From an uncultured virus (IMG/VR IMGVR_UViG_3300027749_003369) (lineage: Duplodnaviria > Heunggongvirae > Uroviricota > Caudoviricetes), in IMG/VR virus record IMGVR_UViG_3300027749_003369: a stretch of DNA of 58,769 nucleotides. One strand, 5' to 3'. This document shows positions 33,360 through 48,802 of this stretch, one piece after another. A model generated the notes under the pieces. It was not told the origin of the DNA, did not search any database, and was given only the letters and a program-made list of their open reading frames with translations. Numbering within the stretch: position 1 is the stretch's first letter; each line of letters opens with the position of its first letter. The translations under genes and the position numbers were made by a program.

Positions 33360-36300
33360 ATGCCAAGTCCAACAGACTTTAACCAATCACCTTATTTTGA
33401 TGATTATAATCAGGATAAAAAGTTTCATAGAGTACTATTTCGTCCAGGTTATGCTGTACAAGCAAGAGAATTAACACAGTCTCAATCGATACTTCAAAAT
33501 CAAGTAGAAAGAATATCCGACCATCTTTTCCAAAAAGGTGCAATGATAATTCCAGGTGAAATTGGATTTGATCTAAATTACTATGCTGTTAAATTAACAT
33601 CTAAAACATATTCAGATATATCTTCATATGTTGGTAAAAAATTAACAGGAGTATCTTCAGGTGTTGTTGCTACATGTATCAATGCAGTTGCAACGGACGG
33701 AACAGATCCTGATACTTTATATGTAAAATATAGTTCTACAGGTACTAATAATTCTTCTATTGTTTTTTCTAATGACGAAACTATAAACGCCACAGAAATA
33801 GATGGTGTAACAACTTTAGCTACTGCTGTTGTAAATACTACTGCTACTGGTTCTGCTGCTAATATTGCTGCTGGTGTTTATTATATTAATGGATTTCACG
33901 TATCGGTTTTAGAACAAACAATTATTTTAAACAAATATACAAATACGCCAAGTTATAGAATTGGTTTAGAAATTGAAGATAGTGTTGTAACTCCCAATGA
34001 TGATTCTTCTTTAAATGATAACGCTCAAGGTTCTTCAAATTTCAATGCACCTGGTGCTTGGAGATTTAAAATAGATTTAATATTATCAAAAAGAACATTA
34101 GCTTCAACAGAAGATGCTAACTTTGTAGAATTATTAAGATTATCTAACGGTATTAGACAAAATCAAGTTACATCTACAGCGTATAATGTGCTGGAAGATA
34201 CTTTAGCGAGAAGAACTTATGATGAATCTGGAGATTATACGGTAAAAGATTTTGATATAGATATGAGAGAACATCTATTAACAGGTAATAATAGAGGTAT
34301 TTACACCTCACCTACAGGAGATGCAAATCTTTTAGCAGCTGGACTTTCTCCAGGAAAAGCGTATGTAAAAGGTTACGAAATAGAAAAAATTGGAACAACT
34401 TATGTTGAAATAGATAAAGCTAGAGATTATGCTACGGAAAACAATTTTAAAACAAGATTTAATTTACAAAATTATGTAAATGTTACAAATGTATATGGTA
34501 CACCTGATATTGGTTATTTTTCTGGTGATGTGGAAGCATTTAAAAATGTAAATCTATTTGATACTGCGACTTCTGCAAGAGGAACTCAACAATCTACTAC
34601 TGGTGCAAAAGTGCCTCAAATTGGTAGAGCTAAATCAAAAGGTTTTGAATTAAATAACGGAACTGCCTCATCATTTATTTTTGCAAGTTCTAGTTTAACA
34701 AGTGCTGTTTATAAACAATATCTATTTGATATAGAAATGTTTACACATTTAAACGTAACTACTGCACCGTCATTTACAGATGGAGAAAAAATTACAGGAA
34801 GCACTTCTGGCGCTTATGGTTATAAACAATCTATTACATCTACTAAATCAGCAACAATTTCAGCAGTTACAAAAGCAAATCCTGGTGTTGTAACAGCAAC
34901 TGCACACACATTTAAAGAAGGACAACAAGTTACAATTTCAAGTGTTGGTGGTATGACACAATTAAATGGTAATGTTTATACTGTAAGAAATCCTGCAACT
35001 GATACTTTTGAACTTTATTCAACAGACGGTACAACTAAAGTTGATACGTCTGGTTACACAACTTATACATCAGGTGGTACAGCAACCCATGGTGTTATAG
35101 TTCTTAATAACGTAACAGGAACATTCATAGCTGGAGAAACTATTACAGGTGCTACATCTTCAGTTACAGCAGTTATTCAATCAAACGCAGTTAATTTTAA
35201 AGGTGTACAGAAATTTGATTTTTCGCAAGTAAAACAAATTGGTATGGCCGGTTCTCCTACATTTACAGCCGACACATCTACGGATGCAACTTATGGAGAA
35301 TCTTATCAATTATATGGAAATTTTTCAATAGCTAATAGTGGAACAACAGTTACTGGATTTGGTACACTATTTACTACAGAACTAAGAATAGGAGATTCTG
35401 TTACATTTACTAATGATGCAGGTTCTTCAGTTACTCGTATAGTAGAATCTATTACATCTAATACAAATTTAGAATTTTCTGTTGCGGTTGGTGGAAGTGA
35501 TGTATCAACTAAAACAACTGGATTCAGAAAAAGAACTTTATTACAAGGTTCAAATTTAAATACTTCTATTTTTAAATTACCATACAAAAGAATTAAAACT
35601 TTAAAAACAACTTCTAATAATGGTTCTTCAGATACAAGTTTATATATAAGACGTCATTTTACAGCAACATTATCTTCGGGATCAGCTACAATTAATTCTG
35701 GAACAAACGAAACATTTGTTAGTCTAACAGAAAAAGATTTTTCAGTATCAGTAATGACTGGTGCAGGTTCTGGAACTACAGGAGATGTATTAAGTTTATC
35801 TGGTAATAATGGAAATGGTAATCCTATATTTACACTAGGTGGTTCTCCAACAGGAAAAACATTAACATTAGATTTTGGTTCAGCATATTCAAATTCTAAA
35901 ATTAAAATACTTGCAACAGTTTCAAGATCAGTTACTAATGAAAAATCTAAAACATTAAATGCTGGAGTTACTACTGCAATTTCTAATCAAACTACAATTC
36001 AATCAGGAGTTATAGGTTTAGGTAAAGCAGACATTTATAAAATAAACAGTATTTACATGTCTCCAGATTTTAGTACACCTGCTACTACAAGTCATACTGA
36101 TGTTACTTCAAGATTTAATTTAGATAATGGACAAAGAGATAATTTTTATGACATTGGTAGAATAAAATTAAAAACAGGTGCAATAACTCCAACAGGAAGA
36201 TTATTAATTAATTTTGATTATTTTTCTCATGGTTCAGGAGATTATTTTAGCGTAGATTCTTATTCGAGTGTAATAGATTATACAAATATACAAAGTTATA

Positions 36301-39300
36301 CTTCTGATACTACTGGCACGGTTTATGATCTTAGAGATTGTTTAGATTTTAGACCAAGAGTTGATGATGCTTCTACTGTAACAAGTGCTACACAAGATAG
36401 ACAATATAGCGGATTAGGAGCTTCTATAATAGATGTAGTTCAATTTAATTCAGATGTAACTGCGGATTTTGAATATTATTTACCTAGAGTTGATAAAATA
36501 TTTTTAGATAAAGATGGAAATTTCAAAGTTTCACAAGGTTCAAGTTCTTTAAATCCACAATTACCTAAAAATATAGACAATGCTATGCAAATAGCAACTG
36601 TGTTTTTAAATGCTTATACTTTAAGTATTACAGATTTATCTATACAAAAAGTTGATAACAAACGTTACACTATGAGAGACATAGGTCGTTTAGAAAGTAG
36701 AATTGCAAATGTAGAATATTACACTCAATTATCTTTATTAGAATCTAATGCACAATCTTTACAAATACAAGATGCTGAAGGATTTGATAGATTCAAAAAT
36801 GGATTTATCGTAGATAACTTTACCGGTCACGGTGTAGGTGATGTAACAAATTTGGATTATAAAGTTGCTATGGATATGGCCAATGGTTTGATGAGACCAA
36901 CATACAATTCAGATTCTGTTAAATTTATTGAAGCTGCAAGTGATGGAACAACAATAACAGAACAAAAAAGAACATTAAACAATTATCAAAAAACAGGCGA
37001 TTTAATTACATTACCTTATACAGAAGTTACTACAATAGAACAACCTTATGCAAGTCGTTATATTAATGTAAATCCATTTAACGTATTTACGTGGGCAGGT
37101 TCTGTCAATCTTGATCCTTCTAGTGATGAATGGAAAGAAACTAACAGAGTTCCTGATTTAGTAATTAATCAACAAGGTTCTTTTGATACAATGGTTGCTA
37201 ATTTAGGCAATCCTAACTTAAAAGATATAGAGGTTAGCACAGTATGGAATGAATGGCAAGATTTTTGGGCAGGAACACCTGTAGAAACCACAAGTGCTGG
37301 AGATGCTTACAGAGGAAGAAATGCAGAAGCTGGAAACGGCAGAGGTGCCGGCGGATGGACAGTTTTAGCTAGAGATATTACAACAACAACAACACAACAA
37401 ATTTCTCAAACAAGAACAGGTATTAGAACAGCTATAGTTCCTCAAATAGTTCAAACATCATTAGGCGATAGAGTTTTAAGTGTTGCTTTTATTCCTTTTA
37501 TTAGAAGTAGAACAATTAATTTTACTGCAACAAGATTAAAACCTAATACTAGAGTTTATCCTTATTTTGATAATGTTTCTATTTCATCTTATATAACACC
37601 AACAGGTGGTTCTTTAGGAGGAAATTTAATAACAGATTCTAATGGTGCTGTTTCTGGAACATTTACAATACCAGATCCTACTAACGATTCAAATCCAAGA
37701 TGGAGAACTGGAACTAGAGTATTCCGTTTAACAAGTTCTTCTACAAATGATATGACTGAAGTAGAAACTTCAGCAGAATCTAATTATGTAGCACAAGGTT
37801 CTTTAGAAACTGTACAAGGCAGTGTAATATCTACAAGAAATGCTCAAACTGTTAGACAAACGGTTACAGATACACAAAATATTGTAAGAGCTTCTACAAG
37901 AACAACACAAGAAATTATACAATGGATTGATCCTATTGCACAAACTTTTTTGATTGATGATACAGGTGGAGTATTCATTACTTCTATAGAAACATATTTC
38001 AAATCAAAAGATGCAAATATACCTGTTACAATGCAAATAAGAGAAGTTGTAAATGGATATCCATCAAGAACACTTGTACCATTTGGTGAAGTTGTTTTAA
38101 ATCCTAGTCAAGTAAATATCAGTGATGATGCAACGGTTGCTACAAAATTTACTTTCCCTTCTCCTGTTTATTTACAAGAAAAAACGGAATATTCTTTTTG
38201 TTTATTAAGTAACTGTAACAGTTATAATGCCTTTGTTGCAGGTATTGGAGAAACACAAATAGGTTCTGATAGAACAATATCTGAAAATCCTTATGCAGGT
38301 GTTTTATTTAAATCTCAAAACGGTTCTACATGGACAGCAGATCAAACAACAGATATAAAATTTAAAATTAATAGAGCAGAATTTAATAATGATATTGGTA
38401 CAGTTACACTAGTAAATAATACTTTACCTACAAAAATTTTACCAAACAATTCATTAAGAACAACAAGCAGTTCAGGAGTAATTAGAGTATTCCACAGAAA
38501 TCATGGTATGCACGGAACAGGAAATAGTGTTACTATTTCTGGTGTTGCTGCTGGAACTTATAATGGTATTGCACATACAGCGATTAATGGAACATATACA
38601 AGTATTTCAAATGTAACTTTAGATAGTTACGATATTACAACTGCTGGCACGGCTACTGCATCTGGTGATGTTGGTGGTACAACAGTTCAAGTAACTCAAA
38701 ATAGATTATTTGATGTTGCAAATTTAAATATTCAAACTTTAACAGTTCCTGGCACATCTATAATTTATGGTATGCAAACCACATCTGGTAAATCTATACA
38801 TGGTTCTGAAACAGAATTTAATTTAACAACTTTATCTAATGCTTTAAGTATAATTCCAGGAAGCAATATATATTTTACAGCACCTCAAATGGTGGCTAGT
38901 CAAATTAATGAAACTAATCATATGAGTGGTTCTAAATCATTATTTGTCAATCTTTCTTTATATACTGATAATACAAAAGTTTCTCCTGTAATTGATACAT
39001 CAAGAATGAGTATGGTTGTAGTACAAAACAGACTAAATTCGCCAACATCTGGTAATACACCTAATTTTATTGATGCGACAGCTCCTTCAGGATCTTCATC
39101 AGCTGCAATTTATGTAACACGACCTGTTATTTTAGAAAATACTTCTACAGCTTTTGATGTTAGACTTACTGCAAACGTAAGATCATCTTCTACCATAAAA
39201 GTTTATTATAGAGTTACAGGTGCATCTGAAGTTAGAAATATAACAGATTTATCTTGGACACCATTTAATACAGATGGTTCTGAAGATATTGCTGTAACTC

Positions 39301-39455
39301 CAGCATTGAACGATAATACATTTAATGAATACAAATATACAGCAAGTAATATTACAGGATTTACAGCATTTCAAATTAAAATAGTATTAAAAGGAACTAA
39401 TTCATCATATCCTCCAATTGTAAAAGATTTAAGAGGAATTGCATTAGCACTGTAG
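33360..39455 (+). CDS. large baseplate-associated virion protein (VrlC/DUF4815-like)
   Basis: PYFDDY...VLFRPG.AVQARELTQ.QS, GKAYVKGYE, RYTMRDIG.LE.RI, RFKNGFIVDNF, DPIAQTF. Confidence 0.85.
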   Translation: MPSPTDFNQSPYFDDYNQDKKFHRVLFRPGYAVQARELTQSQSILQNQVERISDHLFQKGAMIIPGEIGFDLNYYAVKLTSKTYSDISSYVGKKLTGVSSGVVATCINAVATDGTDPDTLYVKYSSTGTNNSSIVFSNDETINATEIDGVTTLATAVVNTTATGSAANIAAGVYYINGFHVSVLEQTIILNKYTNTPSYRIGLEIEDSVVTPNDDSSLNDNAQGSSNFNAPGAWRFKIDLILSKRTLASTEDANFVELLRLSNGIRQNQVTSTAYNVLEDTLARRTYDESGDYTVKDFDIDMREHLLTGNNRGIYTSPTGDANLLAAGLSPGKAYVKGYEIEKIGTTYVEIDKARDYATENNFKTRFNLQNYVNVTNVYGTPDIGYFSGDVEAFKNVNLFDTATSARGTQQSTTGAKVPQIGRAKSKGFELNNGTASSFIFASSSLTSAVYKQYLFDIEMFTHLNVTTAPSFTDGEKITGSTSGAYGYKQSITSTKSATISAVTKANPGVVTATAHTFKEGQQVTISSVGGMTQLNGNVYTVRNPATDTFELYSTDGTTKVDTSGYTTYTSGGTATHGVIVLNNVTGTFIAGETITGATSSVTAVIQSNAVNFKGVQKFDFSQVKQIGMAGSPTFTADTSTDATYGESYQLYGNFSIANSGTTVTGFGTLFTTELRIGDSVTFTNDAGSSVTRIVESITSNTNLEFSVAVGGSDVSTKTTGFRKRTLLQGSNLNTSIFKLPYKRIKTLKTTSNNGSSDTSLYIRRHFTATLSSGSATINSGTNETFVSLTEKDFSVSVMTGAGSGTTGDVLSLSGNNGNGNPIFTLGGSPTGKTLTLDFGSAYSNSKIKILATVSRSVTNEKSKTLNAGVTTAISNQTTIQSGVIGLGKADIYKINSIYMSPDFSTPATTSHTDVTSRFNLDNGQRDNFYDIGRIKLKTGAITPTGRLLINFDYFSHGSGDYFSVDSYSSVIDYTNIQSYTSDTTGTVYDLRDCLDFRPRVDDASTVTSATQDRQYSGLGASIIDVVQFNSDVTADFEYYLPRVDKIFLDKDGNFKVSQGSSSLNPQLPKNIDNAMQIATVFLNAYTLSITDLSIQKVDNKRYTMRDIGRLESRIANVEYYTQLSLLESNAQSLQIQDAEGFDRFKNGFIVDNFTGHGVGDVTNLDYKVAMDMANGLMRPTYNSDSVKFIEAASDGTTITEQKRTLNNYQKTGDLITLPYTEVTTIEQPYASRYINVNPFNVFTWAGSVNLDPSSDEWKETNRVPDLVINQQGSFDTMVANLGNPNLKDIEVSTVWNEWQDFWAGTPVETTSAGDAYRGRNAEAGNGRGAGGWTVLARDITTTTTQQISQTRTGIRTAIVPQIVQTSLGDRVLSVAFIPFIRSRTINFTATRLKPNTRVYPYFDNVSISSYITPTGGSLGGNLITDSNGAVSGTFTIPDPTNDSNPRWRTGTRVFRLTSSSTNDMTEVETSAESNYVAQGSLETVQGSVISTRNAQTVRQTVTDTQNIVRASTRTTQEIIQWIDPIAQTFLIDDTGGVFITSIETYFKSKDANIPVTMQIREVVNGYPSRTLVPFGEVVLNPSQVNISDDATVATKFTFPSPVYLQEKTEYSFCLLSNCNSYNAFVAGIGETQIGSDRTISENPYAGVLFKSQNGSTWTADQTTDIKFKINRAEFNNDIGTVTLVNNTLPTKILPNNSLRTTSSSGVIRVFHRNHGMHGTGNSVTISGVAAGTYNGIAHTAINGTYTSISNVTLDSYDITTAGTATASGDVGGTTVQVTQNRLFDVANLNIQTLTVPGTSIIYGMQTTSGKSIHGSETEFNLTTLSNALSIIPGSNIYFTAPQMVASQINETNHMSGSKSLFVNLSLYTDNTKVSPVIDTSRMSMVVVQNRLNSPTSGNTPNFIDATAPSGSSSAAIYVTRPVILENTSTAFDVRLTANVRSSSTIKVYYRVTGASEVRNITDLSWTPFNTDGSEDIAVTPALNDNTFNEYKYTASNITGFTAFQIKIVLKGTNSSYPPIVKDLRGIALAL

Positions 39456-39683: not shown

Positions 39684-41102
39684 ATGGCATATACAATAAT
39701 TAATACTACAGATACACTAGAACAAATGCGAGTTAAGCTAAACAACTTGACTACAAATGATTTTGGCAATCCTGCTTTATTGGCGCCAGCTGGTATTGCA
39801 TCAACTTCTATTGTTGGAGCTGTTGTTGAATTAGCAGCAATTGCTTATTCAGCTGCAGGTTGGACGATTAAAGATTCTGTAAATACTACACAAGGTATTG
39901 GTTCTGGAGAAACATTAACCGTATTAGGTACTACAAATCAAATTAATGCTGTTGTAAGTGCAACGGATACTTTAACTTTAAGTTTACCTACAAATGTAGT
40001 TATATCAGGTTATTTTCAAGGCAGTAACTTTTCAACAAATTCAGGAAACATAACAGCAAATGGAACACTACACACTTTAGGTGATATAGAAATTTCTAAT
40101 GCAACAATTAGATCAATTGCAACTAGTTTGGTCACTATTAATGATTCTTTGACAGTATCGGGAACTACTCTTACAGCAAGCAATTATGTATCTTCAGGAA
40201 ACATAACTATCAATACAGATAAATTTGTAGTTACAGGTTCAAATGGTAATACTTCTATTAAAGGAACTTTAGGTGTAACTGGATTAACTACAAGTTCTGG
40301 ATTATATCTTTCTTCTGGTGCTATTGATTTTGAAGGTGCGACCAGTAATGCTTTTAAAACAACTTTGACGGTTGTTGATCCAACAGCAAATAGAACTCTT
40401 ACATTACCAAACGTAACAGGTACTATTGTTACTACAGGCGATGTTGGAACGGTTACAGGCACTATGATTGCTGATAGTACAATTATAAATGCTGATATTG
40501 CCGATAATACGATTAGAGGTGCAAAATTAAATGTATCTTCTGATAATGTAACATTTGGAACAGTTACAGCTTCTACATTTACTGGAACGGCATCTATTGC
40601 ATCCACTATTTCTTTGACCGCTGATAATAGTTCAAACACGACAAATTATTTAACTTTTTCTTCTACTGCTACAGGAAACCAAAGTTTAAAAACAGATACG
40701 GATTTAAATTATAATCCTTCTACTAATGTTTTAAATACCACGGCTACTGCAGCAAGATATGCCGATTTAGCCGAGATTTATGAAACGGATGAAGAATATG
40801 AAGTTGGTACTGTTATAATGATTGGTGGAGAAAAAGAAGTTACAAAATCTTTTGTTGGTTGTAGAGCAATTGGTGTTATATCAGAAAGACCTGCTTTTTT
40901 GATGAACGCAGAAGGAAAAGGTCAACCAGTTGCATTAAAAGGTCGTGTTAAAGTAAAAGTTTCAGGTCCTGTTAAAAAAGGAGATGAATTGGTTGCTGGT
41001 AATGACGGTTATGCTGCTACTATTAGTGAAGAATTTACAAAAGTATTTGCGATAGCATTAGAAGATAATGACAAAGGCTTAATCGAGGCAATTATACTAT
41101 AA
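39684..41102 (+). CDS. tail fibre with C-terminal intramolecular chaperone (peptidase G2/IMC-like)
   Basis: Thr/Ser/Gly-rich beta repeats; ARYADLAEIY, PAFLMN, VALKGRVKVKV.GPVKKGD. Confidence 0.82.
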   Translation: MAYTIINTTDTLEQMRVKLNNLTTNDFGNPALLAPAGIASTSIVGAVVELAAIAYSAAGWTIKDSVNTTQGIGSGETLTVLGTTNQINAVVSATDTLTLSLPTNVVISGYFQGSNFSTNSGNITANGTLHTLGDIEISNATIRSIATSLVTINDSLTVSGTTLTASNYVSSGNITINTDKFVVTGSNGNTSIKGTLGVTGLTTSSGLYLSSGAIDFEGATSNAFKTTLTVVDPTANRTLTLPNVTGTIVTTGDVGTVTGTMIADSTIINADIADNTIRGAKLNVSSDNVTFGTVTASTFTGTASIASTISLTADNSSNTTNYLTFSSTATGNQSLKTDTDLNYNPSTNVLNTTATAARYADLAEIYETDEEYEVGTVIMIGGEKEVTKSFVGCRAIGVISERPAFLMNAEGKGQPVALKGRVKVKVSGPVKKGDELVAGNDGYAATISEEFTKVFAIALEDNDKGLIEAIIL

Positions 41103-41126: not shown

Positions 41127-41576
41127 ATGATTGATGCTTTAACTGATGAAATTATGTCTTTTTCAAGATACGAAAACAATCAAATAATTTATATAGATAA
41201 AGAAGGTAAAGACTATAAAGTTAAAGAAGAAATAACTTATGGTACTTGGATCAAAACTTACAAAGATATTTCTCATATAAAAGTTGAAGGTTTAGAAGAT
41301 AAATCATTTCATTTAAAAATATTAAAAGATTTTAAATTAAATCATAAAGTAAATAGTGTTCATTTGTTTTACAATCAATATGGTGGATTTTCTTTTCCTG
41401 AACATGCAGATGACACAAACGTTCTTTTATATGTTGTAAAAGGTTCTAAAAAAGTATATGTAGATAATCATCCAATTATGTTAAAAGAGGAACAAATGAT
41501 TTTTATACCAAAAGGTGTAAAACATAAAGTTGATAGTTCCGAAAACACTTGGGCATTAAGTATAGGATTTAATTAA
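41127..41576 (+). CDS. JmjC/cupin-type oxygenase
   Basis: SFPEHAD...GSKK...FIPKGVKHKV (HxD..H). Confidence 0.8.
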   Translation: MIDALTDEIMSFSRYENNQIIYIDKEGKDYKVKEEITYGTWIKTYKDISHIKVEGLEDKSFHLKILKDFKLNHKVNSVHLFYNQYGGFSFPEHADDTNVLLYVVKGSKKVYVDNHPIMLKEEQMIFIPKGVKHKVDSSENTWALSIGFN

Positions 41577-42613
41577 TGAATTGGATGTTTTATTTAAAGA
41601 CGACTGAAACTTGTCAACTAAATTGCAAACACTGTTTTACTAGTGGTATAAATGGTAAAAAGATTTACTTTGATCATTTCAAAACAATAGATTTTATAAA
41701 AAGATTTAGACAATATTTTAATAAAGATACAGATTCAATTCATTTAGATTTTCATGGGGGTGAACCTTTTTTGGCACCAGTATCTCATATGAATAAAGTA
41801 TATGAAGAATGTAAAGATTTGTGGCCTAATATGTCATGGGGCATAACTTCAAATCTTGTTTTAAAATTAAAAGAAGAGCACTACCAATTTATAAAAGGTC
41901 CATTAAACAATAGAATAGGAACTAGTTGGGATCCTAAAATACGTTTTGAAAATGATACTCAATACAATTTGTGGGAAAAAAACGTAAAAGATTTATTAAA
42001 TAAAGGTGCCACAATTAAATTGTTTATTAGTGTAACTAAAGATACTATTGCTATGGAACCTATTGAATTATTAAAATGGATTAAAGAATTGGGTGTACAA
42101 GAAATATCATTTGAACGATTAACGGGTAATGGTAACGCAAAATTACATCCTGAGATATTTCCCAACAATATAGAACAAGATAAGTGGTTTCTAAAAATGC
42201 ACCATCAATCCAAAGAGTTTAATTGTAGGAGTTGGTTTGATAATGATACTTTAGAAATTATATACAGTAAATTTGAAAAAGGATTTTTAAAAGGAGGTAC
42301 GTTTTGCCGAGATTGCGAACAAAAAATATTCACAATAAATGCCGATGGAACAATATCAGGGTGCCCCAATTCTGCACCAGAGTTCTCTTATGGTACAATA
42401 AATGATGATATACAAACCATTATAAATAGTCCAGTTAGAATAGAAAACATTGCTTGTGAAACGGCAAGAAATCCAATATGTTTTTCTTGTGAAGTTTTTG
42501 AGTTTTGTGGAGGTGATTGCCACCAACTTGCTTGGCAAGATGATATATGTGGTGCACCTAAAAGTCTAATGAAGGAACTAAAAGGCAATATAAAATATGA
42601 CAACATTAACTAA
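41576..42613 (+). CDS. radical SAM/SPASM protein
   Basis: CQLNCKHC, FHGGEP, C-terminal CFSCEVFEFCGGDC. Confidence 0.93.
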   Translation: MNWMFYLKTTETCQLNCKHCFTSGINGKKIYFDHFKTIDFIKRFRQYFNKDTDSIHLDFHGGEPFLAPVSHMNKVYEECKDLWPNMSWGITSNLVLKLKEEHYQFIKGPLNNRIGTSWDPKIRFENDTQYNLWEKNVKDLLNKGATIKLFISVTKDTIAMEPIELLKWIKELGVQEISFERLTGNGNAKLHPEIFPNNIEQDKWFLKMHHQSKEFNCRSWFDNDTLEIIYSKFEKGFLKGGTFCRDCEQKIFTINADGTISGCPNSAPEFSYGTINDDIQTIINSPVRIENIACETARNPICFSCEVFEFCGGDCHQLAWQDDICGAPKSLMKELKGNIKYDNIN

Positions 42614-43169
42614 TCCAATAACACCACAAAATATAGTGGATAGATTTAAAGATTTTGTAACTGATACGGCAAATTCGACTATTATTTGGGGAACAAATAA
42701 TAAACCTTTTTCTCAAATGCCTGATGCCACGTTTGCAGGTACAACTGATGGAACTACGATAACAGCTACAGGTTCTTCTATAGGTTCTACAGGAAACACC
42801 ATTACAGCTTCTAATATTGTAAATGCTTTACTTACAGAAACAGCTCTTTATACTAACATAAGAAATTTAAGAGCAGTATTAAATGTGGTTCTTAGTTATT
42901 ATGGTGGTAATTATCCTGGTGGTGGTGGAGTAATTTATGATCAAACTGCAAAAGCATATTTAAATACTGATTATAGACAAACGTTAAATACTGTTGCCTC
43001 TACAAATGTGGAATCAGAGAAAATAATATCAGCAACAAATTTAGAAACATTTTTTACAAATTTACAAACGGAGTATAGTACACAATCGGTTAATACTGCA
43101 ACAATACAGGTGGACGTATGTCATGCGAGTTGTCATGGAAATTGCCACAGCAACAGAGGAAGAAGATAA
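42597..43169 (+). CDS. Thr-rich virion-like protein with C-terminal (CHxx)3 tail; candidate modification substrate
   Basis: Ends VDVCHASCHGNCHSNRGRR; no Cys or His elsewhere in the protein. Confidence 0.75.
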   Translation: MTTLTNPITPQNIVDRFKDFVTDTANSTIIWGTNNKPFSQMPDATFAGTTDGTTITATGSSIGSTGNTITASNIVNALLTETALYTNIRNLRAVLNVVLSYYGGNYPGGGGVIYDQTAKAYLNTDYRQTLNTVASTNVESEKIISATNLETFFTNLQTEYSTQSVNTATIQVDVCHASCHGNCHSNRGRR

Positions 43170-43861
43170 TGCAAACAATTGAAACAACAGCACCAATATC
43201 GATAGAAAATTTAAAAAAGTATTTTACAAATAAAGATACTTTTTATGTTATAGATTACACTAAGAGTGAAATGAAAGGTTCTAAATTGTTAACATATCTA
43301 AGTAATTTAGATTTACCTGTAGATATAAAAGAACCGGATTTAGAATTAATAAAAGATTATTTTAATAGTATTTCATTAGTAAATATTAATTCATTAGAAA
43401 ATATTACAATTAATGTTTTGTTACAGTACAAAGGTTTAGTTAAAGAAGATAATTATAAAAATTTCATTCAAGAAAATAAAGAAATAATTTCTAAATGGTC
43501 TGATAAGTTGGATAGTTTAACAATATTCAATGCGTATATGGTAAATTCTGATTTACTAAAAAATTATGCACAAACTTTTCCTAAAGATGAAACAAAAGAT
43601 TTAACAGGTGTAAATTTTTTAAGTTTATTAAAACATGAAAGATTTTATTCATTTTATAATGTATTAAATAAAAATTTAAAATTTTATACTCATTATTTTA
43701 CTGATTATATGTTTAGAGGTAGAAATTTGTTTAGTTTTTGGGGCAATCCAAACAATCCAATGTTTTTATTAACACTAGCAATATCTCAAGGTAAAAATAA
43801 AGATTATATAACAGCAAAACAACAAGATAAGGAAATAATAAAAAATGTTGCATCTATTTAG
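43169..43861 (+). CDS. hypothetical protein of the radical SAM cluster
   Basis: MQTIETTAPI..., TAATG-coupled to the previous gene (ORF track 43118..43861). Confidence 0.75.
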   Translation: MQTIETTAPISIENLKKYFTNKDTFYVIDYTKSEMKGSKLLTYLSNLDLPVDIKEPDLELIKDYFNSISLVNINSLENITINVLLQYKGLVKEDNYKNFIQENKEIISKWSDKLDSLTIFNAYMVNSDLLKNYAQTFPKDETKDLTGVNFLSLLKHERFYSFYNVLNKNLKFYTHYFTDYMFRGRNLFSFWGNPNNPMFLLTLAISQGKNKDYITAKQQDKEIIKNVASI

Positions 43862-45002
43862 AAAAATTTATTTAGAACACGATATTAATATAGATTTGGA
43901 TAAAGATAGAATAGTTGTTTCTGAACAATGTGGCGTGCCTAATTGGAATGTATTAGATACAATTGGACTTGGACAACTTATATTTTATGGTAAAAATTTG
44001 GATAATTTAAATACTCCGGTTTCTTTTCTTGAATTGCTTAATATACTCAATGAAAGAACAAAAGAAAATAATAAACCTATTTACATATATGCTGATAAAA
44101 ATAATTATTATAAAATATTAAGTCTTTGGTATAAAATTATATTACCTAATGCCACGGTTAATGATGTTATAAGTTTTGTAAAACTATTTTTTGATTATAA
44201 AAATTTTTGGAAAATATCAAGATTTTATAATTTCAAAAAAATTTGGTCTACATCGCCTGATTGGTTATTTGATAGAAATAAATTAGAAACTGAATATAAT
44301 TCTTTAATAATTAATCGTGATGATTATGAAACTTTTATTAATGAAAATGTTGGAAAATTTAATATAGAATTATTATTAGCTTCTTATTTATATAATGGTT
44401 CGAGAAAAGAAGAATTGAAAGCAATTATGATTCCTCTGTTAAGAGAAGAACTTTCAAAATCTTTATATGGAATAAGAGAACATTTTACTTACTGCTTACT
44501 TAATAAAAAATTTTTAGAAAAACTGGGAATTGTACATACTATTGATATTAATAATATTTTAGATATTCTTGAATACGATAATCCTATAATTAAAACATTT
44601 TATCAAAATAATTCTGTTTGGAAATTAAATTTTTTATCTCACGCTGCTTATGACATTATGAATAATTGGGGGTCTGATTCTATGATTTCTTTCGAAAATA
44701 TTACAGATGAAGATATTTTTAATATTAAACAATTTTTAATAAATATTGGAATTTCAGAAACAGATTCGGCTGGTATGGAATGGCGTTATTTGTTAGATCT
44801 TATTCCTCTTGTTAAGTCTAATACAATAACTGATGAACAATTAGATCAATTAATAAATCATCAAGAATCACAAGAAAGCTTAGTTACCACTGGTACTTTT
44901 TATAGCATAAGTTTTCCTACAGTTAATACTTACTTTGTGCAACATATTTTTAATCAATTTAATGAAGATAATACAGAAATTTTGGCTCCATATGTTATAT
45001 AA
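43845..45002 (+). CDS. hypothetical protein of the radical SAM cluster
   Basis: 385-aa ORF, coupled; no motif recognised. Confidence 0.75.
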   Translation: MLHLFRKIYLEHDINIDLDKDRIVVSEQCGVPNWNVLDTIGLGQLIFYGKNLDNLNTPVSFLELLNILNERTKENNKPIYIYADKNNYYKILSLWYKIILPNATVNDVISFVKLFFDYKNFWKISRFYNFKKIWSTSPDWLFDRNKLETEYNSLIINRDDYETFINENVGKFNIELLLASYLYNGSRKEELKAIMIPLLREELSKSLYGIREHFTYCLLNKKFLEKLGIVHTIDINNILDILEYDNPIIKTFYQNNSVWKLNFLSHAAYDIMNNWGSDSMISFENITDEDIFNIKQFLINIGISETDSAGMEWRYLLDLIPLVKSNTITDEQLDQLINHQESQESLVTTGTFYSISFPTVNTYFVQHIFNQFNEDNTEILAPYVI

Positions 45003-45004
45003 AG

Positions 45005-46039
45005 GTGAAAATGCAAGAAGATATATCATTCTACAAATTAATAGATAATAAAGTTATAGACTGGTCTGAAATTGTTTTATGTTTATTTGAACATTGCAAT
45101 TTATCATGTGCTTTTTGCCCACAAGATCATTCAAGTATATTGGGTGCCTCAGAAGAAGAAATCTTAAATAAAGTTCCAACAATAACCCGTTACATTGAAC
45201 GAAACGATAGATCAAAACATTTCATAATAAACACTATGGGTGGTGAACTGTTACAAGATACATGGACAGATAAAGGCTTCTTAGATATATATTCTAAATT
45301 TGTAAAACAAGTTAGAGAAAAAGTTTCTTCTGATAAAACTGTTGTATTTAATTTTGTTACCAATCTTGTATTTGATAAAACAGATTTAATCGTAGATTTT
45401 ATTAAAAAAAATAATATCATATTATCAGTTTCTTATGACATTGTAGGTAGATTTAATACACCTGCATTAGAAACTTTTAAAAAAAATATAGATATTCTTA
45501 AATCACATATTAAAATGATAAGTTGTGTTTTGACAAAACAGAACATTGAAAAAATAGTTGCTGGTGATGAATACTTTGATTATCTATATAATAATTTTGA
45601 AATACATTTTGATTCATTATTACCAAGTGTAACTAGAAAAACAAATGTCTTTATGATGCCTGCTGAATCAGAAACATTTAAATTCTATAAACTATGTGTT
45701 GACAAATATCCTAAAATGTTAAACATAGAACCATTCTTAAATGGCAAAACAAATAATAGGATGGGTTGCACTAAAGGCAACAGTTTAACAGTAATGCCTG
45801 ATGGTAGTATACCAAAAGGCTGTTCTGGTGCAGTGTTATTACAAGATTCAAATACAAAAGATTTGAGTGGTACTAAAATTATTGAAAACTTTATGAAAAA
45901 ATATAATTGTTTTGAATGTGAGTTTTTTCAAAGATGTCCTTTTACCTGCTTTATAAAACAAGATTTTAAATTTATTGAACATGATATGAACGAATGTGTG
46001 TTTAAGGAAACATTTAGGTATGCTGATTCAAAAAAATAA
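45005..46039 (+). CDS. radical SAM protein with C-terminal Cys cluster
   Basis: CNLSCAFC, MGGE, CFECEFFQRCPFTC. Confidence 0.9.
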   Translation: MKMQEDISFYKLIDNKVIDWSEIVLCLFEHCNLSCAFCPQDHSSILGASEEEILNKVPTITRYIERNDRSKHFIINTMGGELLQDTWTDKGFLDIYSKFVKQVREKVSSDKTVVFNFVTNLVFDKTDLIVDFIKKNNIILSVSYDIVGRFNTPALETFKKNIDILKSHIKMISCVLTKQNIEKIVAGDEYFDYLYNNFEIHFDSLLPSVTRKTNVFMMPAESETFKFYKLCVDKYPKMLNIEPFLNGKTNNRMGCTKGNSLTVMPDGSIPKGCSGAVLLQDSNTKDLSGTKIIENFMKKYNCFECEFFQRCPFTCFIKQDFKFIEHDMNECVFKETFRYADSKK

Positions 46040-47720
46040 AATAGCATTTATAAATCCACCACATACTGATTGGAGTTTAGCAAATAATTTAACTTATTTG
46101 CTGATACAAAGTCATTATAGAAGATTTGGTAAATATTATGATAAATTTGAATGGTTAGAAGCTCCTTATAAATTTAATAAGTACAAAGATATAAAAGATA
46201 TATACAATGAAATTCCTAATGCAGACATTTATTTAATTAGTAGTTATGTATGGAATTATGATATATGTGATTTGTTTGCTCAACATGTTAAAAAAATAAA
46301 CAAAAATGCTTTATGTATATTAGGCGGTCCACATATAGGTACAAATGAACCTGAGTTTTTAAAATCAAGAAAATTTTATGATTTTATATGTCAACCTACA
46401 AAACCTGGTGAAGTTTTTATAGAAGATTTTCTAAATTCTTATATAGACAATAACGGCAAAGTTAATAAAGAAGATATCAGTTGGGAAATGAATAGTACAA
46501 AACAAACTAAATGTGGCCTGCCTGATTATTCAATATATGAAGAACATTTTGATTATGTAAAAAAAATATGCAATTATTCAAAAGAACATAAAATGGAAGC
46601 ATTTATTGTATTAGAAACTACAAGAGGTTGTCCATACAAATGTGTGTATTGTGAATGGGGTGGCGGATTAGATACTAAAATTATAAAGAAAAAAGTAGAT
46701 ATTGCTAAGAGAGATATTTCTGCTATGAAGCGTGCTGGTTATACAAGTGCATTTTTAACAGATGCAAATTTTGGAGCTTTTGAAGAAAGAGATTTAGAAA
46801 TATTTAAATTCGCATGGCAACAAGGAGTGCATTTAACAGATATATCTACAATGAAATCTAAAGATTTAAATAGAAGAAAAAAGTTAGTTGATTGTTGGTT
46901 TGAAATAGTAGGACCTAGAGTTGAACCTAAAAATTCTAAACAAAGTAAAAATTTTGAATATTGGAACTTAAATGAGGTTGATAATTATATTTCTATTGTT
47001 CCTACTGTTTCAATTCAAAGTATATCTGATGAAGCAATGAAAGTTGCTAAAAGAGTTGATTTATCATCTAAAGATAAAATAGAACTGAGTAAACATATAG
47101 AAAAACAATGTAGAGAAAAAGGTTATCCTGTACCATCACTAGAATTAATATTAGGAATGCCTGGTTCAACATTAAAAGATTTTTATGATGAAATGGAAAT
47201 TATATGGAATTTTAAAGCACTTAGTAATAACAGACACGATTATATATTATTGCCAGATAGTTATATAAGCAAAAAAGAATATTTGGAACAATATAAAATT
47301 CAACCTGTAAAAGTATATACTGATTTGGTAGATGATTCTGGTGTAGACAATGTACATAGTTTATATAAACAAAAACAAAATTATTTCTATACAATACAAA
47401 GTTGTTATAGTTTTACCAAAGAAGAAATGTACGAAATGTTTTTTATGAATCAAGCTTGTAATAAATTATTAGAATTGATATATCCAATGTTTGAAGAAAA
47501 ATTAACACCTGGTAATTTTTGTAAAGAATGTTTTGCTATAATAAAAGAATTACCTGAGTATAGTAAAATAAATAATTATATTATAGATTTATACGATATT
47601 AATACTCCTCCAAAAAGTATTAAAAAAATAAATGGAAGATTTAGAACTGAAATTATTGATGAAATGGTTTTAAATAATAAACATATTATAATAAGTGAGA
47701 TGTTTAAAAAATGGATTTAA
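46020..47720 (+). CDS. cobalamin-binding-domain radical SAM enzyme (class B-like)
   Basis: N-terminal SSYVWN...ILGGPH; ETTRGCPYKCVYCEWG; DANFG; ELILGMPG. Confidence 0.88.
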   Translation: MLIQKNKIAFINPPHTDWSLANNLTYLLIQSHYRRFGKYYDKFEWLEAPYKFNKYKDIKDIYNEIPNADIYLISSYVWNYDICDLFAQHVKKINKNALCILGGPHIGTNEPEFLKSRKFYDFICQPTKPGEVFIEDFLNSYIDNNGKVNKEDISWEMNSTKQTKCGLPDYSIYEEHFDYVKKICNYSKEHKMEAFIVLETTRGCPYKCVYCEWGGGLDTKIIKKKVDIAKRDISAMKRAGYTSAFLTDANFGAFEERDLEIFKFAWQQGVHLTDISTMKSKDLNRRKKLVDCWFEIVGPRVEPKNSKQSKNFEYWNLNEVDNYISIVPTVSIQSISDEAMKVAKRVDLSSKDKIELSKHIEKQCREKGYPVPSLELILGMPGSTLKDFYDEMEIIWNFKALSNNRHDYILLPDSYISKKEYLEQYKIQPVKVYTDLVDDSGVDNVHSLYKQKQNYFYTIQSCYSFTKEEMYEMFFMNQACNKLLELIYPMFEEKLTPGNFCKECFAIIKELPEYSKINNYIIDLYDINTPPKSIKKINGRFRTEIIDEMVLNNKHIIISEMFKKWI

Positions 47721-48802
47721 TAATTAAACCTACTGAGTTATGTAACTTTAAATGTACTTTTTGTTCTAGTACAAAGATATCCGAACATAGAAAAGATGAA
47801 TTATCACATGAACAAATAATTACATTTTTAAAAAGATTTCCTCAAACGAGAACAATTATAGTTAATGGTGGGGATCCTTTAATGATGGAACCAGAATATT
47901 ATTGGAAAATTATTAAATGGTTAGATAAAAATAATTATAAAACAACACTTGCATTAACAACCAATTTGTGGCCATTTTACAAAAAACCAGAGAAATGGAA
48001 AGACTTATTTAATAATGAAAGAGTGGGTGTAACTACTTCGTTTCAATATGGAGGTGGCCGCCTTAAAGGAGATTATTCAGAATTTACAGAAGAAGATTTT
48101 TGGAAATGTTCAGATACAATGTTAGAGCACTGTGGTTATAGGCCAGATTTTATATCTGTTATAGTACCTGAAAATGAAAAAGTTGCAATTAAAAATGTAG
48201 AACTTGCAAAACGTATGAGTGAAGATGTTGTACCTGATGGTACATTACACAACTTTACACGTTATAGTAAAACCGGCGTAGAATGTAAATTAAACTATGC
48301 AATGGCCAGCGGTGAACAAGGTAAACCTTATTTACTGAGTAAAATATATCAAATCTATGTAGAGATATGGAAACGTGGTCTTGCGCCTTGGGAATTTAAT
48401 ACAAAACAAATGATGCAACGATTAACTGGTGGTAGAACATCATGTCCTCAAAATCGTAAATGTGATAGTGGTATTCGTGCATTAAATCCTAGTGGTGATT
48501 ATTATTCTTGTGGTTCGTTTGGTGATGATAAAGATAAATCAATAGATTTTAATAAAGAAATGAAGGGTGAGTTTTTTACGCCATTACAAGATGATGTTAA
48601 TCTTATTAGTATGAAGAAGGCCTGTTTTACTTGTCCTATGTTTGAGATATGTAATGGTTGTAGAAAAACAATTAAAGATTTAAAACAACATAATATGGTA
48701 GAAGAACATTGTAAATTAATGAAATCTATTGCACCAGATATACTTAAATCTAACAAACTAAATATAGAAGTAACACCTTATATAAATGAAAGTATACTAT
48801 GA
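47711..48802 (+). CDS. radical SAM/SPASM protein
   Basis: KPTELCNFKCTFC, NGGDP, GDYYSC, CFTCPMFEICNGC. Confidence 0.93.
   Translation: MDLIIKPTELCNFKCTFCSSTKISEHRKDELSHEQIITFLKRFPQTRTIIVNGGDPLMMEPEYYWKIIKWLDKNNYKTTLALTTNLWPFYKKPEKWKDLFNNERVGVTTSFQYGGGRLKGDYSEFTEEDFWKCSDTMLEHCGYRPDFISVIVPENEKVAIKNVELAKRMSEDVVPDGTLHNFTRYSKTGVECKLNYAMASGEQGKPYLLSKIYQIYVEIWKRGLAPWEFNTKQMMQRLTGGRTSCPQNRKCDSGIRALNPSGDYYSCGSFGDDKDKSIDFNKEMKGEFFTPLQDDVNLISMKKACFTCPMFEICNGCRKTIKDLKQHNMVEEHCKLMKSIAPDILKSNKLNIEVTPYINESIL

What the first reader, a model, noticed from the sequence alone, without database searches (positions are those of the whole stretch)
42597..43169. Candidate substrate: virion-like protein ending in CHAS-CHGN-CHSN-RGRR
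Seen: all Cys and His of this 190-aa Thr/Asn-rich protein are in the last 16 residues (43119-43169), as a period-4 repeat; the gene overlaps the first radical SAM gene. Established: Cys-x3-Cys spacing occurs in SCIFF/ranthipeptide cores, and His-Xaa-Ser-type triplets are cyclophane (triceptide) substrates of SPASM enzymes. Here HAS, HGN and HSN fit the latter. Inference: a RiPP-like core fused to a structural carrier, or a Cys3His3 metal site; an iron-bearing tip would fit the 'Ferrojan horse' idea of siderophore-receptor mimicry.
Basis: partly seen in the sequence, partly recalled or inferred. Interest (0 to 1): 0.85.

Follow-up and report, generated by a model that had tools for sequence, protein, structure and literature searches.

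The report
Phage virion protein with radical-SAM target tail
This small phage protein ends in an almost invariant Cys-His-x-Ser repeat, is always encoded beside radical SAM enzymes, and belongs to a large unnamed family; its relative in one cultured phage is part of the virus particle, so it probably marks an unstudied way of chemically finishing a structural protein.

Summary
ORF 42597-43169 encodes 190 aa, and its only Cys and His residues are C175/H176, C179/H180 and C183/H184, followed by RGRR and the stop.

This is not a chance feature. It is the signature of a large unnamed family: 894 cluster representatives, and 135 of the top 150 end in the exact motif. The consensus tail is (C-H-x-S)3-R-G-R-R. 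The family occurs in T4-like marine phages, in jumbo phages (Atu_ph07, Phosso, the RSL2 group, pPa_SNUABM_DT01) and in Bdellovibrionota chromosomes.

All 115 loci with at least 3 kb of flank carry radical-SAM-like genes, usually 4-5. The common order is cupin, rSAM/SPASM, tail protein, phrog_20767.

Published proteomics place the Atu_ph07 ortholog (gp170, 31.89 kDa) in the virion. It peaks in the top gel fragment, and the neighbouring enzymes are not listed.

The body folds confidently (pLDDT 89.6) and matches no solved structure. The tail is flexible.

My best reading (about 0.6) is a virion protein whose tail is the substrate of the cassette. The chemistry is unknown. The triceptide/SCIFF assignments are untested and the iron-tip idea has no support.

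The scan met this family before on two other genomes. No paper found describes it.

The parts
33360..39455 (+). 2031-aa VrlC-like baseplate protein (context: start of the host-recognition region)
   Evidence: phrog_358 E=0. Pfam DUF4815 9.4e-62. Homologs precede the cassette in 23 of 85 well-flanked loci. VrlC and the host recognition cluster are described in PMC7029224 (passages).
39684..41102 (+). 472-aa fibre-like protein with a C-terminal intramolecular-chaperone-like region
   Evidence: phrog_19602 tail fiber 1.4e-9 and phrog_22593. Pfam Peptidase_G2 IMC domain 1.9e-4, below cut-off. Homolog present in 42 of 85 loci and directly upstream of the tail gene in 11.
41127..41576 (+). 149-aa cupin (JmjC-like), probable Fe-dependent oxygenase
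   Evidence: Pfam Cupin_2 1.3e-8 and JmjC_2 2.7e-5. Present in 47 of 85 loci.
41576..42613 (+). rSAM/SPASM enzyme 1, translationally coupled to the tail gene
   Evidence: Pfam SPASM 23.8 bits (cut-off 21.5). TIGR04085 SPASM 34.4 bits (cut-off 27). Invariant C13/C17/C20 plus C247, C263, C302, C305, C311, C315 and C325 in 37 homologs. The profile's best full-length PDB match is anSME 4k36/4k37. Directly upstream of the tail gene in 50 of 85 loci.
42597..43169 (+). The finding: 190-aa CH-tail protein (globular body 1-174, tail 175-190)
43119..43166 (+). Tail core C-H-A-S-C-H-G-N-C-H-S-N-R-G-R-R
   Evidence: Invariant C, H and R columns in A1. pLDDT 77 then 55 over the last two 10-residue blocks. 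Single pattern match in the window.
43169..43861 (+). 230-aa phrog_20767 protein, unknown function, constant downstream neighbour
   Evidence: phrog_20767 2e-59. Directly downstream of the tail gene in 52 of 85 loci and present in 68. AF2 pLDDT 90.8. No clear PDB match.
43845..45002 (+). 385-aa unknown cassette protein
   Evidence: No Pfam, NCBIfam or PHROG hit. Homolog in 31 of 85 loci.
45005..46039 (+). rSAM enzyme 2 (SPASM-like C-terminus)
   Evidence: phrog_1802 2.7e-34. CxxxCxxC visible in the translation. Present in 72 of 85 loci.
45996..47720 (+). B12-binding rSAM, probable methyltransferase
   Evidence: NF033712 KedN5-type 1.8e-23 (82.6 bits, far below cut-off 700). Pfam B12-binding and Radical_SAM, both weak. 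Present in 21 of 85 loci.
47711..48802 (+). rSAM/SPASM enzyme 3
   Evidence: Pfam Radical_SAM 37.6 bits (cut-off 29.5). phrog_1802 4.1e-57. anSME 4k36 2e-6 over the N-terminal 80 residues. Present in 65 of 85 loci.
48799..49548 (+). 249-aa unknown cassette protein
   Evidence: No family hit. Present in 7 of 85 loci.
49538..50122 (+). 2OG-Fe(II) oxygenase
   Evidence: Pfam 2OG-FeII_Oxy_5 2.9e-13. phrog_81 2.5e-23.
50115..50624 (+). 169-aa 2OG-oxygenase-like protein (weak)
   Evidence: Pfam 2OG-FeII_Oxy_3 4.5e-4, below cut-off. Present in 25 of 85 loci.
50621..51547 (+). rSAM enzyme 5
   Evidence: phrog_1802 8.4e-32. Pfam Radical_SAM 27.7 bits, just below cut-off. Present in 41 of 85 loci.
51489..51929 (+). 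146-aa phrog_20737 protein, unknown, recurrent cassette member
   Evidence: phrog_20737 1.3e-44. Present in 19 of 85 loci, including Bdellovibrionota loci.
51919..52599 (+). 226-aa 2OG-oxygenase-like protein (weak); probable end of the cassette
   Evidence: Pfam 2OG-FeII_Oxy_4 1.9e-4, below cut-off.

Best explanation
ORF 42597-43169 belongs to a large, unnamed family of phage and predatory-bacterium proteins. Each member has a folded body, about 175 aa here, and a flexible C-terminal tail (C-H-x-S)3-R-G-R-R. In phages it is a structural protein of the baseplate/fibre ('host recognition') module. It is also the dedicated protein substrate of the cassette around it: here one cupin, five radical SAM enzymes (three SPASM-type, one B12-type), about three 2OG oxygenases and several unknown proteins. 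The enzymes act on the exposed tail in the infected cell and are not packaged.

Shown: the family, the invariance of the tail, the obligatory linkage to rSAM genes, and virion residence of the Atu_ph07 ortholog.

Inferred: that the tail is the modified site, and what the chemistry is. The chemistry is most likely Cys-centred, as in SPASM enzymes that work on whole proteins or Cys-rich cores: a thioether cross-link or oxidation of Cys to formylglycine. A His-Ser bridge of the HXS type, hydroxylation and methylation may be added. The likely result is a covalently stapled, reactive or metal-binding end that fixes or arms the protein in the particle.
For: (1) The tail is conserved far beyond the body. 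119 of the 120 listed homologs end in CH..CH..CH..R.RR. So do 135 of the top 150 of 894 representatives, and most of the other 15 are close variants or truncated ends. Columns C175, H176, C179, H180, C183, H184, R187, R189 and R190 are invariant in a 92-sequence alignment whose mean column identity is 18%. Ser sits at the unconstrained 4th position in 144, 130 and 141 of 164 tails, and Gly in RGRR in 143 of 164.
(2) The linkage is obligatory. All 115 loci with a tail ORF and at least 3 kb of flank hold rSAM-like ORFs, 101 by phmmer to the window's rSAMs, with a mode of 4-5 per locus. rSAM1 lies directly upstream in 50 of 85 loci and phrog_20767 directly downstream in 52 of 85. In the window the three genes are coupled by overlaps.
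(3) The same order occurs in the jumbo phages Atu_ph07, RSL2, Phosso and pPa_SNUABM_DT01.
(4) Atu_ph07 gp170 is a virion protein: 31.89 kDa, 8 unique peptides, 35% coverage, gel fragments 1-9, most abundant in fragment 1 (PMC6102473, Table S5). I identified it as the ortholog by computed masses 31.89, 66.07 and 21.66 kDa for three neighbouring genes. No gp144-169, gp171 or gp172 is listed, so the enzymes are absent from the virion list.
(5) The AF2 body is confident and the tail is not.
(6) Two unrelated body types share only the last 56 residues, helix-strand-tail, at hhalign probability 99.3. There are fusions to a Gly-rich fibre-type domain and multi-core tails with 5 units.
(7) rSAM1 is a full SPASM enzyme with no extra N-terminal domain. 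Its best full-length solved relative is anSME, which modifies whole proteins.
(8) There is a precedent for an rSAM-matured whole protein with HxS repeats: HxsA (PMC13128918, section 9 read).
Against: No modification has been observed; the published proteome gives no peptide list for the tail. None of the window's rSAMs reaches the curated cut-off of any named maturase family, so the chemistry is open. In the 14 loci of the short tandem type, the rSAM call rests on an N-terminal CxxxCxxC motif and sub-threshold Pfam hits only. The enzymes could act on another neighbour, such as the fibre or the VrlC-like protein. Virion residence is shown for one distant ortholog (38% identity over the last 71 residues), not for this phage. 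Many proteins smear over gel fragments in that data set, so the top-fragment peak is suggestive only. The Bdellovibrionota copies sit in cellular contexts with no virion, so 'structural protein of a particle' cannot be the whole story.
Confidence: 0.6

Rival explanations
1. The tail is an unmodified Cys3His3 (or, in an oligomer, Cys9His9) metal site for Zn, Fe or Cu that stabilises or arms a fibre or baseplate protein. The neighbouring rSAM enzymes have another substrate.
For: There are six invariant metal-ligand residues at a flexible end. Phage fibres with His-coordinated metal ions are known (recalled: T4 gp37 and gp12). The protein is in the virion and runs high on SDS-PAGE.
Against: This does not explain why all 115 well-flanked loci carry rSAM-like genes, with rSAM1 translationally coupled to the tail gene. 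It does not explain the conserved Ser at every 4th position or the R-G-R-R end. It does not explain the cellular copies that keep the same enzymes.
Confidence: 0.13
2. It is a classical RiPP precursor. The 174-aa body is a long leader, and the 16-residue core is modified, cut off and released as a small peptide or metallophore.
For: The architecture is core-at-the-C-terminus with an adjacent SPASM enzyme. Multi-core variants with five tandem units resemble multi-core precursors. Long folded leaders are known (recalled: the NHLP and Nif11 types).
Against: The Atu_ph07 ortholog is found in virions with 35% coverage. The body is well folded and conserved, and is fused to fibre-type domains. No protease or exporter family was detected among the cassette proteins.
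Confidence: 0.08
3. The protein is an accessory factor of the enzymes, such as an Fe-S or metal carrier, an electron donor or an assembly scaffold, rather than their substrate.
For: It has a Cys/His-rich end and is strictly co-inherited with Fe-S enzymes.
Against: An accessory factor would not be expected in the virion when the enzymes are absent from it. Tandem paralog pairs and multi-core tails fit substrates better than carriers.
Confidence: 0.06

Closest known systems
HXS antiphage system (HxsA/HxsB/HxsC/HxsD; Li et al., Nat Commun 2026, PMC13128918; abstract and section 9 read)
   Same: A whole folded protein of about 200 aa, not a short peptide, carries short His-x-Ser repeats. It is matured by two rSAM enzymes plus a small partner, and the modification (+8 Da) maps to a His/Ser motif.
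   Different: HxsA is a bacterial, periplasmic defence effector with 5 HxS repeats and, as described, no Cys before each His. Here the repeats are C-H-x-S at the extreme C-terminus followed by RGRR, the protein is encoded by phages and sits in the virion, and the cassette has 3-7 rSAMs plus oxygenases. The window's rSAMs score 35.1 and 32.5 bits against HxsB and HxsC cut-offs of 370 and 267.9. No HxsA or HxsD model matches.
Anaerobic sulfatase-maturating enzyme (anSME) acting on sulfatases
   Same: This is an rSAM/SPASM enzyme of the same size, without an N-terminal peptide-recognition domain, that modifies a Cys or Ser in a protein. It is the best full-length solved relative of the rSAM1 profile (4k36/4k37, E 2e-8, positions 12-319 against 12-333). 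The third repeat, C-H-x-S-R, places Arg at +4 as in the sulfatase C/S-x-P/A-x-R motif (motif recalled, not from a call).
   Different: TIGR03942 scores 40.9 bits against a cut-off of 349. There is no sulfatase fold and no Pro/Ala rule at +2. There are three repeats and many further enzymes.
CXXX-repeat peptide modification system (NCBIfam TIGR04115 maturase; Pfam PF27846 target)
   Same: The target carries Cys at period 4 beside a SPASM maturase. The atlas feature search listed a PF27846 cluster at rank 28, score 0.80 (a lead only).
   Different: TIGR04115 scores 39.5 bits against a cut-off of 350. The target here is a folded protein with exactly three (rarely four) C-H-x-S units and a basic end. 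The CXXX system itself has no published chemistry that I could find.
SCIFF/ranthipeptide and sactipeptide maturases (CteB, PapB) and QhpD/QhpC
   Same: These are SPASM enzymes that make Cys thioether cross-links. PapB is the top NCBIfam hit of rSAM1 (50 bits), and QhpD modifies a protein subunit.
   Different: All scores are far below the cut-offs (PapB 340, QhpD 453). The profile matches CteB (5wgg) only over the N-terminal rSAM core. No Asp, Glu or Thr acceptor pattern is present.
Triceptides (three-residue cyclophanes; XyeB, YhhB, FxsB, HaaB/HtkB)
   Same: H-x-S fits the aromatic-x-x motif class. His-containing cyclophanes exist (PMC11499958, abstract in a search listing only).
   Different: XyeB scores 19.8 of 450, YhhB 32.7 of 445 and FxsB 26.7 of 370 bits. 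The invariant Cys before each His has no counterpart.

Membership tests
Radical SAM / SPASM superfamily (neighbour genes, not the finding itself) | CxxxCxxC cluster motif plus a C-terminal 7-8 Cys SPASM motif; Pfam/TIGR SPASM model at cut-off | tested here: met
   rSAM1: C13/C17/C20 and C247, C263, C302, C305, C311, C315, C325 are invariant in 37 of 37 sequences, and C244 in 31 of 37. PF13186 scores 23.8 (cut-off 21.5) and TIGR04085 34.4 (cut-off 27). rSAM3: PF04055 scores 37.6 (cut-off 29.5).
HXS system (HxsA substrate) | Match to the HxsA repeat-protein model; His-x-Ser repeats | tested here: not met
   No NCBIfam family at E<=0.01 for the tail protein or its multi-core variant. H-x-S repeats are present but always preceded by Cys.
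HXS system (HxsB/HxsC/HxsD enzymes) | Neighbour rSAMs reach the TIGR03978/TIGR03977 cut-offs; an HxsD partner is present | tested here: not met
   HxsB scores 35.1 against 370 and HxsC 32.5 against 267.9. No family was found for phrog_20767, phrog_20737 or the unknown cassette proteins.
anSME / sulfatase maturation | TIGR03942 at cut-off; substrate with a C/S-x-P/A-x-R motif in a sulfatase | tested here: not met
   40.9 bits against 349.45. The substrate has no sulfatase domain. There is similarity in architecture only.
CXXX-repeat target system | Maturase TIGR04115 at cut-off; target matches PF27846 | tested here: inconclusive
   The maturase scores 39.5 against 350. PF27846 did not appear for the tail protein even at E<=10, but it may be missing from the Pfam copy held. 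The atlas lead scores 0.80.
SCIFF / ranthipeptide (PapB, CteB-type) | Maturase family model at cut-off; short Cys-rich precursor | tested here: not met
   PapB NF047865 scores 50 against 340 and not_ScfB 20 against 855. The precursor is a 190-aa folded protein.
Triceptide (3-residue cyclophane) systems | Maturase XyeB/YhhB/FxsB/AmcB model at cut-off; a C-C cross-link between an aromatic residue and residue +2 | tested here: not met
   Scores are 19.8 to 32.7 bits against cut-offs of 362 to 450. The cross-link itself is not testable with these tools.
Virion structural protein | Detected in purified particles | tested here: inconclusive
   Met for the Atu_ph07 ortholog gp170 (Table S5 of PMC6102473). 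Not testable for the window's own phage.

The most novel reading that the evidence does not exclude
The cassette turns the (C-H-x-S)3 tail into a reactive or cross-linking end, for example aldehydes from Cys or inter-protein thioether or His-Ser bridges, or a built-in metal/redox centre. This end covalently staples the protein into the baseplate or fibre, or acts on the host envelope. On this reading it is a protein-chemistry device for breaching Gram-negative cells, shared by tailed phages and Bdellovibrio-like predators. It would be the first radical-SAM-built post-translational structure in a virus particle. The top-of-gel behaviour of the 32-kDa Atu_ph07 protein after boiling in SDS would then reflect covalent linkage.
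Probability: 0.2. Interest if true: 0.9.

Novelty: new variant of a known kind. Interest (0 to 1): 0.8.

Why it matters
Radical SAM maturation is known for small peptides and for a few cellular proteins. It is not known for components of a virus particle. Here a cassette of up to 15 genes (5 rSAMs in this window, 7 in one Pseudomonas phage) is kept in the host-recognition region of abundant marine T4-like phages, in soil jumbo phages and in predatory bacteria. It is built around one 16-residue tail that hardly varies across 894 sequence clusters. That degree of conservation and that gene cost imply an important function. The function is directly testable in cultured systems whose virion proteomes already exist. 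The result could reveal new protein chemistry, explain the 'radical SAM cassettes' that genome papers list without comment, and link phage and Bdellovibrio attack mechanisms.

Tried and rejected
Complex prediction of the tail protein with phrog_20767 gave 'no support' (score 0.00, after six queue refusals). This says nothing either way.

Fold searches of the body found nothing clear. PDB Foldseek gave no match at E<=1e-3. The VIA wide search gave a best Z of 4.1. BFVD returned only family members and three longer uncharacterised Myoviridae proteins. The phrog_20767 model likewise had no clear match (best Z 4.7 over 53 residues).

Single-sequence PDB searches found nothing for rSAM1 and only the N-terminal core of anSME for rSAM3.

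The atlas search returned nothing for phrog_20767. For the tail protein it returned viral unnamed clusters and one weak Cxxx-target lead.

Pfam, NCBIfam and PHROGs hold no named family for the tail protein. The only hit is phrog_35144 at 2e-4, unknown function.

Profile comparison of the divergent rSAM-like ORFs of the short tandem type against rSAM1 aligned only the cluster motif (probabilities 26% and 11%). Their rSAM identity therefore stays provisional.

The T4 late-promoter word TATAAATA is not enriched in the window (16 found, 22.7 expected).

The window's own assembly is not held. The nearest record, G001, is a 31-kb fragment with the identical protein.

Eight literature searches found no paper on this tail or its cassette. 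Phage genome papers only list the cupin, rSAM and 2OG genes (passages read). The RSL2/RSF1 virion study was not found in the library, and the supplementary virion table of the phiRP31 paper was not opened.

I considered and set aside three ideas. Haem-type CxxxCH sites: no cytochrome context. YcaO-type azole formation: no such gene in the cassette. The 'Ferrojan horse' iron tip: no evidence of any kind.
Full report
**Observation.** ORF 42597-43169 (+) gives a 190-aa protein ending VCHASCHGNCHSNRGRR. Its only Cys and His are C175/H176, C179/H180 and C183/H184. Thr (33) and Asn (20) dominate the rest. The start overlaps the stop of the upstream rSAM/SPASM gene (41576-42613) by 17 nt. Its stop overlaps the ATG of the next gene in TAATG. 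Given six Cys/His in 190 residues, the chance that all lie in the last 16 is 1.3e-7. The back-translated DNA pattern occurs once in the window, with none in 100 shuffles.

**Setting.** The window is a T4-like myovirus at 29% G+C. It carries gp5-, gp6-, gp8- and gp48-type baseplate genes, followed by a 2031-aa VrlC-like protein (phrog_358, DUF4815) and a fibre-like protein.
- The pelagimyophage study PMC7029224 (passages read) calls the region after VrlC the 'host recognition cluster'. [quoted passage not shown]
- The cassette in the window runs from about 41127 to 52599. It contains a cupin; rSAM/SPASM 1; the tail protein; phrog_20767; an unknown 385-aa protein; rSAM 2; a B12-type rSAM; rSAM/SPASM 3; an unknown protein; a 2OG oxygenase; a weak 2OG-like protein; rSAM 5; phrog_20737; and another weak 2OG-like protein.

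**The family.**
- A word-indexed search found 295 relatives at E<=0.01, none named. 119 of the 120 listed end in CH..CH..CH..R.RR; the exception is a read-through form.
- A full HMMER scan with a 92-sequence profile found 894 cluster representatives at E<=1e-3 and 702 at E<=1e-10. 135 of the top 150 carry the exact ending. The other 15 are close variants or truncated contig ends: an extra Gly before RxRR, one Cys displaced, two repeats, or other C-termini.
- In the alignment the three Cys, three His and three Arg are invariant, while mean column identity is 18%.
- At positions the search pattern did not impose, Ser fills the 4th place of each repeat in 144, 130 and 141 of 164 distinct tails, and Gly sits in RGRR in 143 of 164. 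160 tails have three repeats and 4 have four.
- The consensus is therefore (C-H-x-S)3-R-G-R-R. The window's HGN and HSN are minority states.

**Linkage to radical SAM genes.**
It also found 47 loci in prokaryotic genome records.
- Ten of those 47 are chance matches in G+C-rich genomes with no ORF. The other 37 are real, and all 37 have rSAM-like neighbours.
- Over both sets, 152 loci hold a tail ORF and 115 of them have at least 3 kb of flank on one side. All 115 hold at least one rSAM-like ORF, 101 by phmmer to the window's enzymes and 14 only by an N-terminal CxxxCxxC motif. The mode is 4-5 such ORFs per locus. In this count, three contigs are each represented by two overlapping loci.
- Among 85 loci with good flanks (duplicates removed), rSAM1 is present in 75, rSAM2 in 72, phrog_20767 in 68, rSAM3 in 65, the cupin in 47 and the fibre-like protein in 42. 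rSAM1 is directly upstream in 50 and phrog_20767 directly downstream in 52. These are lower bounds, because flanks end at 7 kb.
- A second architecture has two tandem tail proteins of about 127 aa right after a fibre gene, followed by 4-5 ORFs with the CxxxCxxC motif. The rSAM nature of those ORFs rests on the motif, sub-threshold Pfam hits and hhalign matches confined to the cluster motif. Canonical rSAM1/3/5 homologs do occur in some loci of this type.

**Cultured phages.** The same order, cupin - rSAM/SPASM - tail protein - phrog_20767 - more rSAMs, is found in four cultured lineages:
- Agrobacterium phage Atu_ph07
- Sinorhizobium phage Phosso
- the Ralstonia/Burkholderia RSL2 group (11 records)
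- Pseudomonas phage pPa_SNUABM_DT01, which has seven annotated rSAM genes

The tails are FCHSSCHASCHNSRSRR, YCHTSCHASCHSSRSRR, VCHSSCHTSCHGSRGRR and ICHTSCHTSCHSARGRR. Papers on these phages only list the enzymes as accessory genes (passages read).

**Virion evidence.**
- Table S5 of the Atu_ph07 paper (PMC6102473; supplement read) lists gp170, 'hypothetical', 31.89 kDa. It has 8 unique peptides and 35.16% coverage, in gel fragments 1-9, and is most abundant in fragment 1.
- The computed mass of the Atu_ph07 tail protein is 31.89 kDa. Its neighbours compute to 66.07 and 21.66 kDa, matching gp176 and gp177. So gp170 is the ortholog.
- Fragment 1 is where the 127-kDa and 139-kDa proteins were found. 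Other virion proteins of 29-32 kDa peak in fragments 7-8.
- No gp144-169, gp171 or gp172 is listed, so the rSAMs, the cupin and the phrog_20767 homolog are not in the particle list.
- The tail protein is thus structural in at least one member. It runs far above its monomer size after boiling in SDS. That is suggestive of covalent or very stable association, with the caution that many proteins smear in this data set.

**Structure.**
- AF2 with the 92-row alignment gives pLDDT 89.6 and pTM 0.82. Three long helices (10-27, 71-87, 146-164) pack on a three-stranded sheet (88-98, 111-122, 167-175).
- The first Cys ends the last strand, and the remaining tail is of low confidence.
- No solved structure matches. 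BFVD returns family members and three longer paralogs from one uncultured myovirus.
- The short tandem type shares only the last 56 residues (helix-strand-tail) with the long type, at hhalign probability 99.3.
- Larger members exist, up to 453 aa, one with an N-terminal Gly_rich_2 domain.
- Multi-core forms repeat the CHxSCHxSCHSN unit five times.
- The conserved unit is therefore a C-terminal module grafted onto different bodies. This suits a recognition element plus core.

**Enzymes.**
- rSAM1 homologs keep C13/C17/C20 and seven further invariant Cys in the SPASM pattern; an eighth, C244, is present in 31 of 37.
- The profile's best full-length solved match is anSME (4k36/4k37, E 2e-8). CteB and others match only the N-terminal core.
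- All NCBIfam maturase hits are generic and far below cut-off: PapB 50 of 340, anSME 40.9 of 349, CXXX-repeat 39.5 of 350, HxsB 35.1 of 370, triceptide enzymes 20-33 of 362-450.
- The chemistry cannot be assigned by homology. I favour Cys-centred SPASM chemistry on an exposed protein tail. Hydroxylation by the cupin/2OG enzymes and methylation by the B12 rSAM, where present, may be added. This is inference.

**Beyond phages.**
- 26 of the 37 genomic loci come from Bdellovibrionota records, including contigs of 1.29, 2.45 and 2.84 Mb.
- In the one locus I checked by Pfam (L171), the flanks encode matrixin-type peptidases, signal peptidase II and a metallophosphatase, not phage structural genes.
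- These proteins have no obvious signal peptide (by eye).
- The system is therefore not restricted to virions. I did not examine wider flanks.

**Known comparators.**
- The nearest described system in logic is the bacterial HXS defence. HxsA, a 214-aa protein with five HxS repeats, is matured by two rSAMs and HxsD with a +8 Da change on an SHRSS motif (PMC13128918; abstract and section 9 read).
- Membership in HXS, in anSME/sulfatase, in SCIFF/ranthipeptide and in triceptide systems was tested by the curated models and not met.
- The CXXX-repeat target system remains an open lead.
- Eight full-text searches found no paper on this tail or cassette.
- The scan's own notes show two earlier reports of the same family on other genomes with the same reading. 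They are not independent evidence. I re-derived the linkage, the distribution and the HXS comparison here, and added the virion proteome identification.

**Verdict.** The best explanation (about 0.6) is a virion protein whose invariant C-terminal tail is the substrate of a dedicated radical-SAM/oxygenase cassette. Rivals are an unmodified metal site (0.13), a released RiPP (0.08) and an accessory carrier (0.06). It is a new variant of a known kind, rSAM maturation of a whole protein, in an unprecedented place. It is widespread, and it is testable in cultured phages.

Noticed in passing
L156:3907-4266 (-) and protein P0244: Multi-core variants: five tandem CHxSCHxSCHSN units before the final RGRR, on an otherwise normal 227-aa body. 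One copy lies at the end of a Dysosmobacter segnis contig.
   Followed up: partly
L132-L173 (26 Bdellovibrionota loci, e.g. L171, L150, L148): Chromosomal copies of the tail protein with rSAM1/2/3/5, phrog_20767 and phrog_20737 homologs in predatory bacteria, on Mb-size contigs. L171 is flanked by matrixin peptidases and lspA, not phage genes.
   Followed up: partly
window 42421-42428: A T4-type late-promoter word, TATAAATA, lies inside the rSAM1 gene 169 nt before the tail gene start. It could give the structural protein its own late transcript, but the word is not enriched in this AT-rich window (16 found, 22.7 expected).
   Followed up: partly
window 54669-58033 (-): On the opposite strand just after the cassette lie an FkbM-type methyltransferase fused to a glycosyltransferase-like region, and a 675-aa double glycosyltransferase (GT1 + GT2). 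These are the LPS-type genes that the pelagimyophage paper reports in host recognition clusters.
   Followed up: no
BFVD hits A0A8S5USJ8, A0A8S5USJ7, A0A8S5USV2: Three paralogous proteins of 504-660 aa from one uncultured myovirus (ctijX18) contain the same predicted fold (prob 1.0). The body domain therefore also occurs inside much larger proteins.
   Followed up: no
window 33360-39455: The 2031-aa VrlC-like baseplate protein carries a region matching the ubiquitin-activating enzyme E1 FCCH domain (residues 507-577, 1.9e-9), besides DUF4815.
   Followed up: no
protein P0006: A 99%-identical metagenomic variant of the window's protein reads through the stop for 12 more residues after RGRR, on a 1.5-kb contig. 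It is either a sequencing error or a natural loss of the free C-terminus.
   Followed up: no
Literature: Campylobacter phages CP220/CPt10 (PMC2853527, passages): These phages carry 11-12 radical SAM genes in exchangeable modules. They were not hit by the window's rSAM1 at E<=1e-5, so whether they hold a related substrate is unknown.
   Followed up: no
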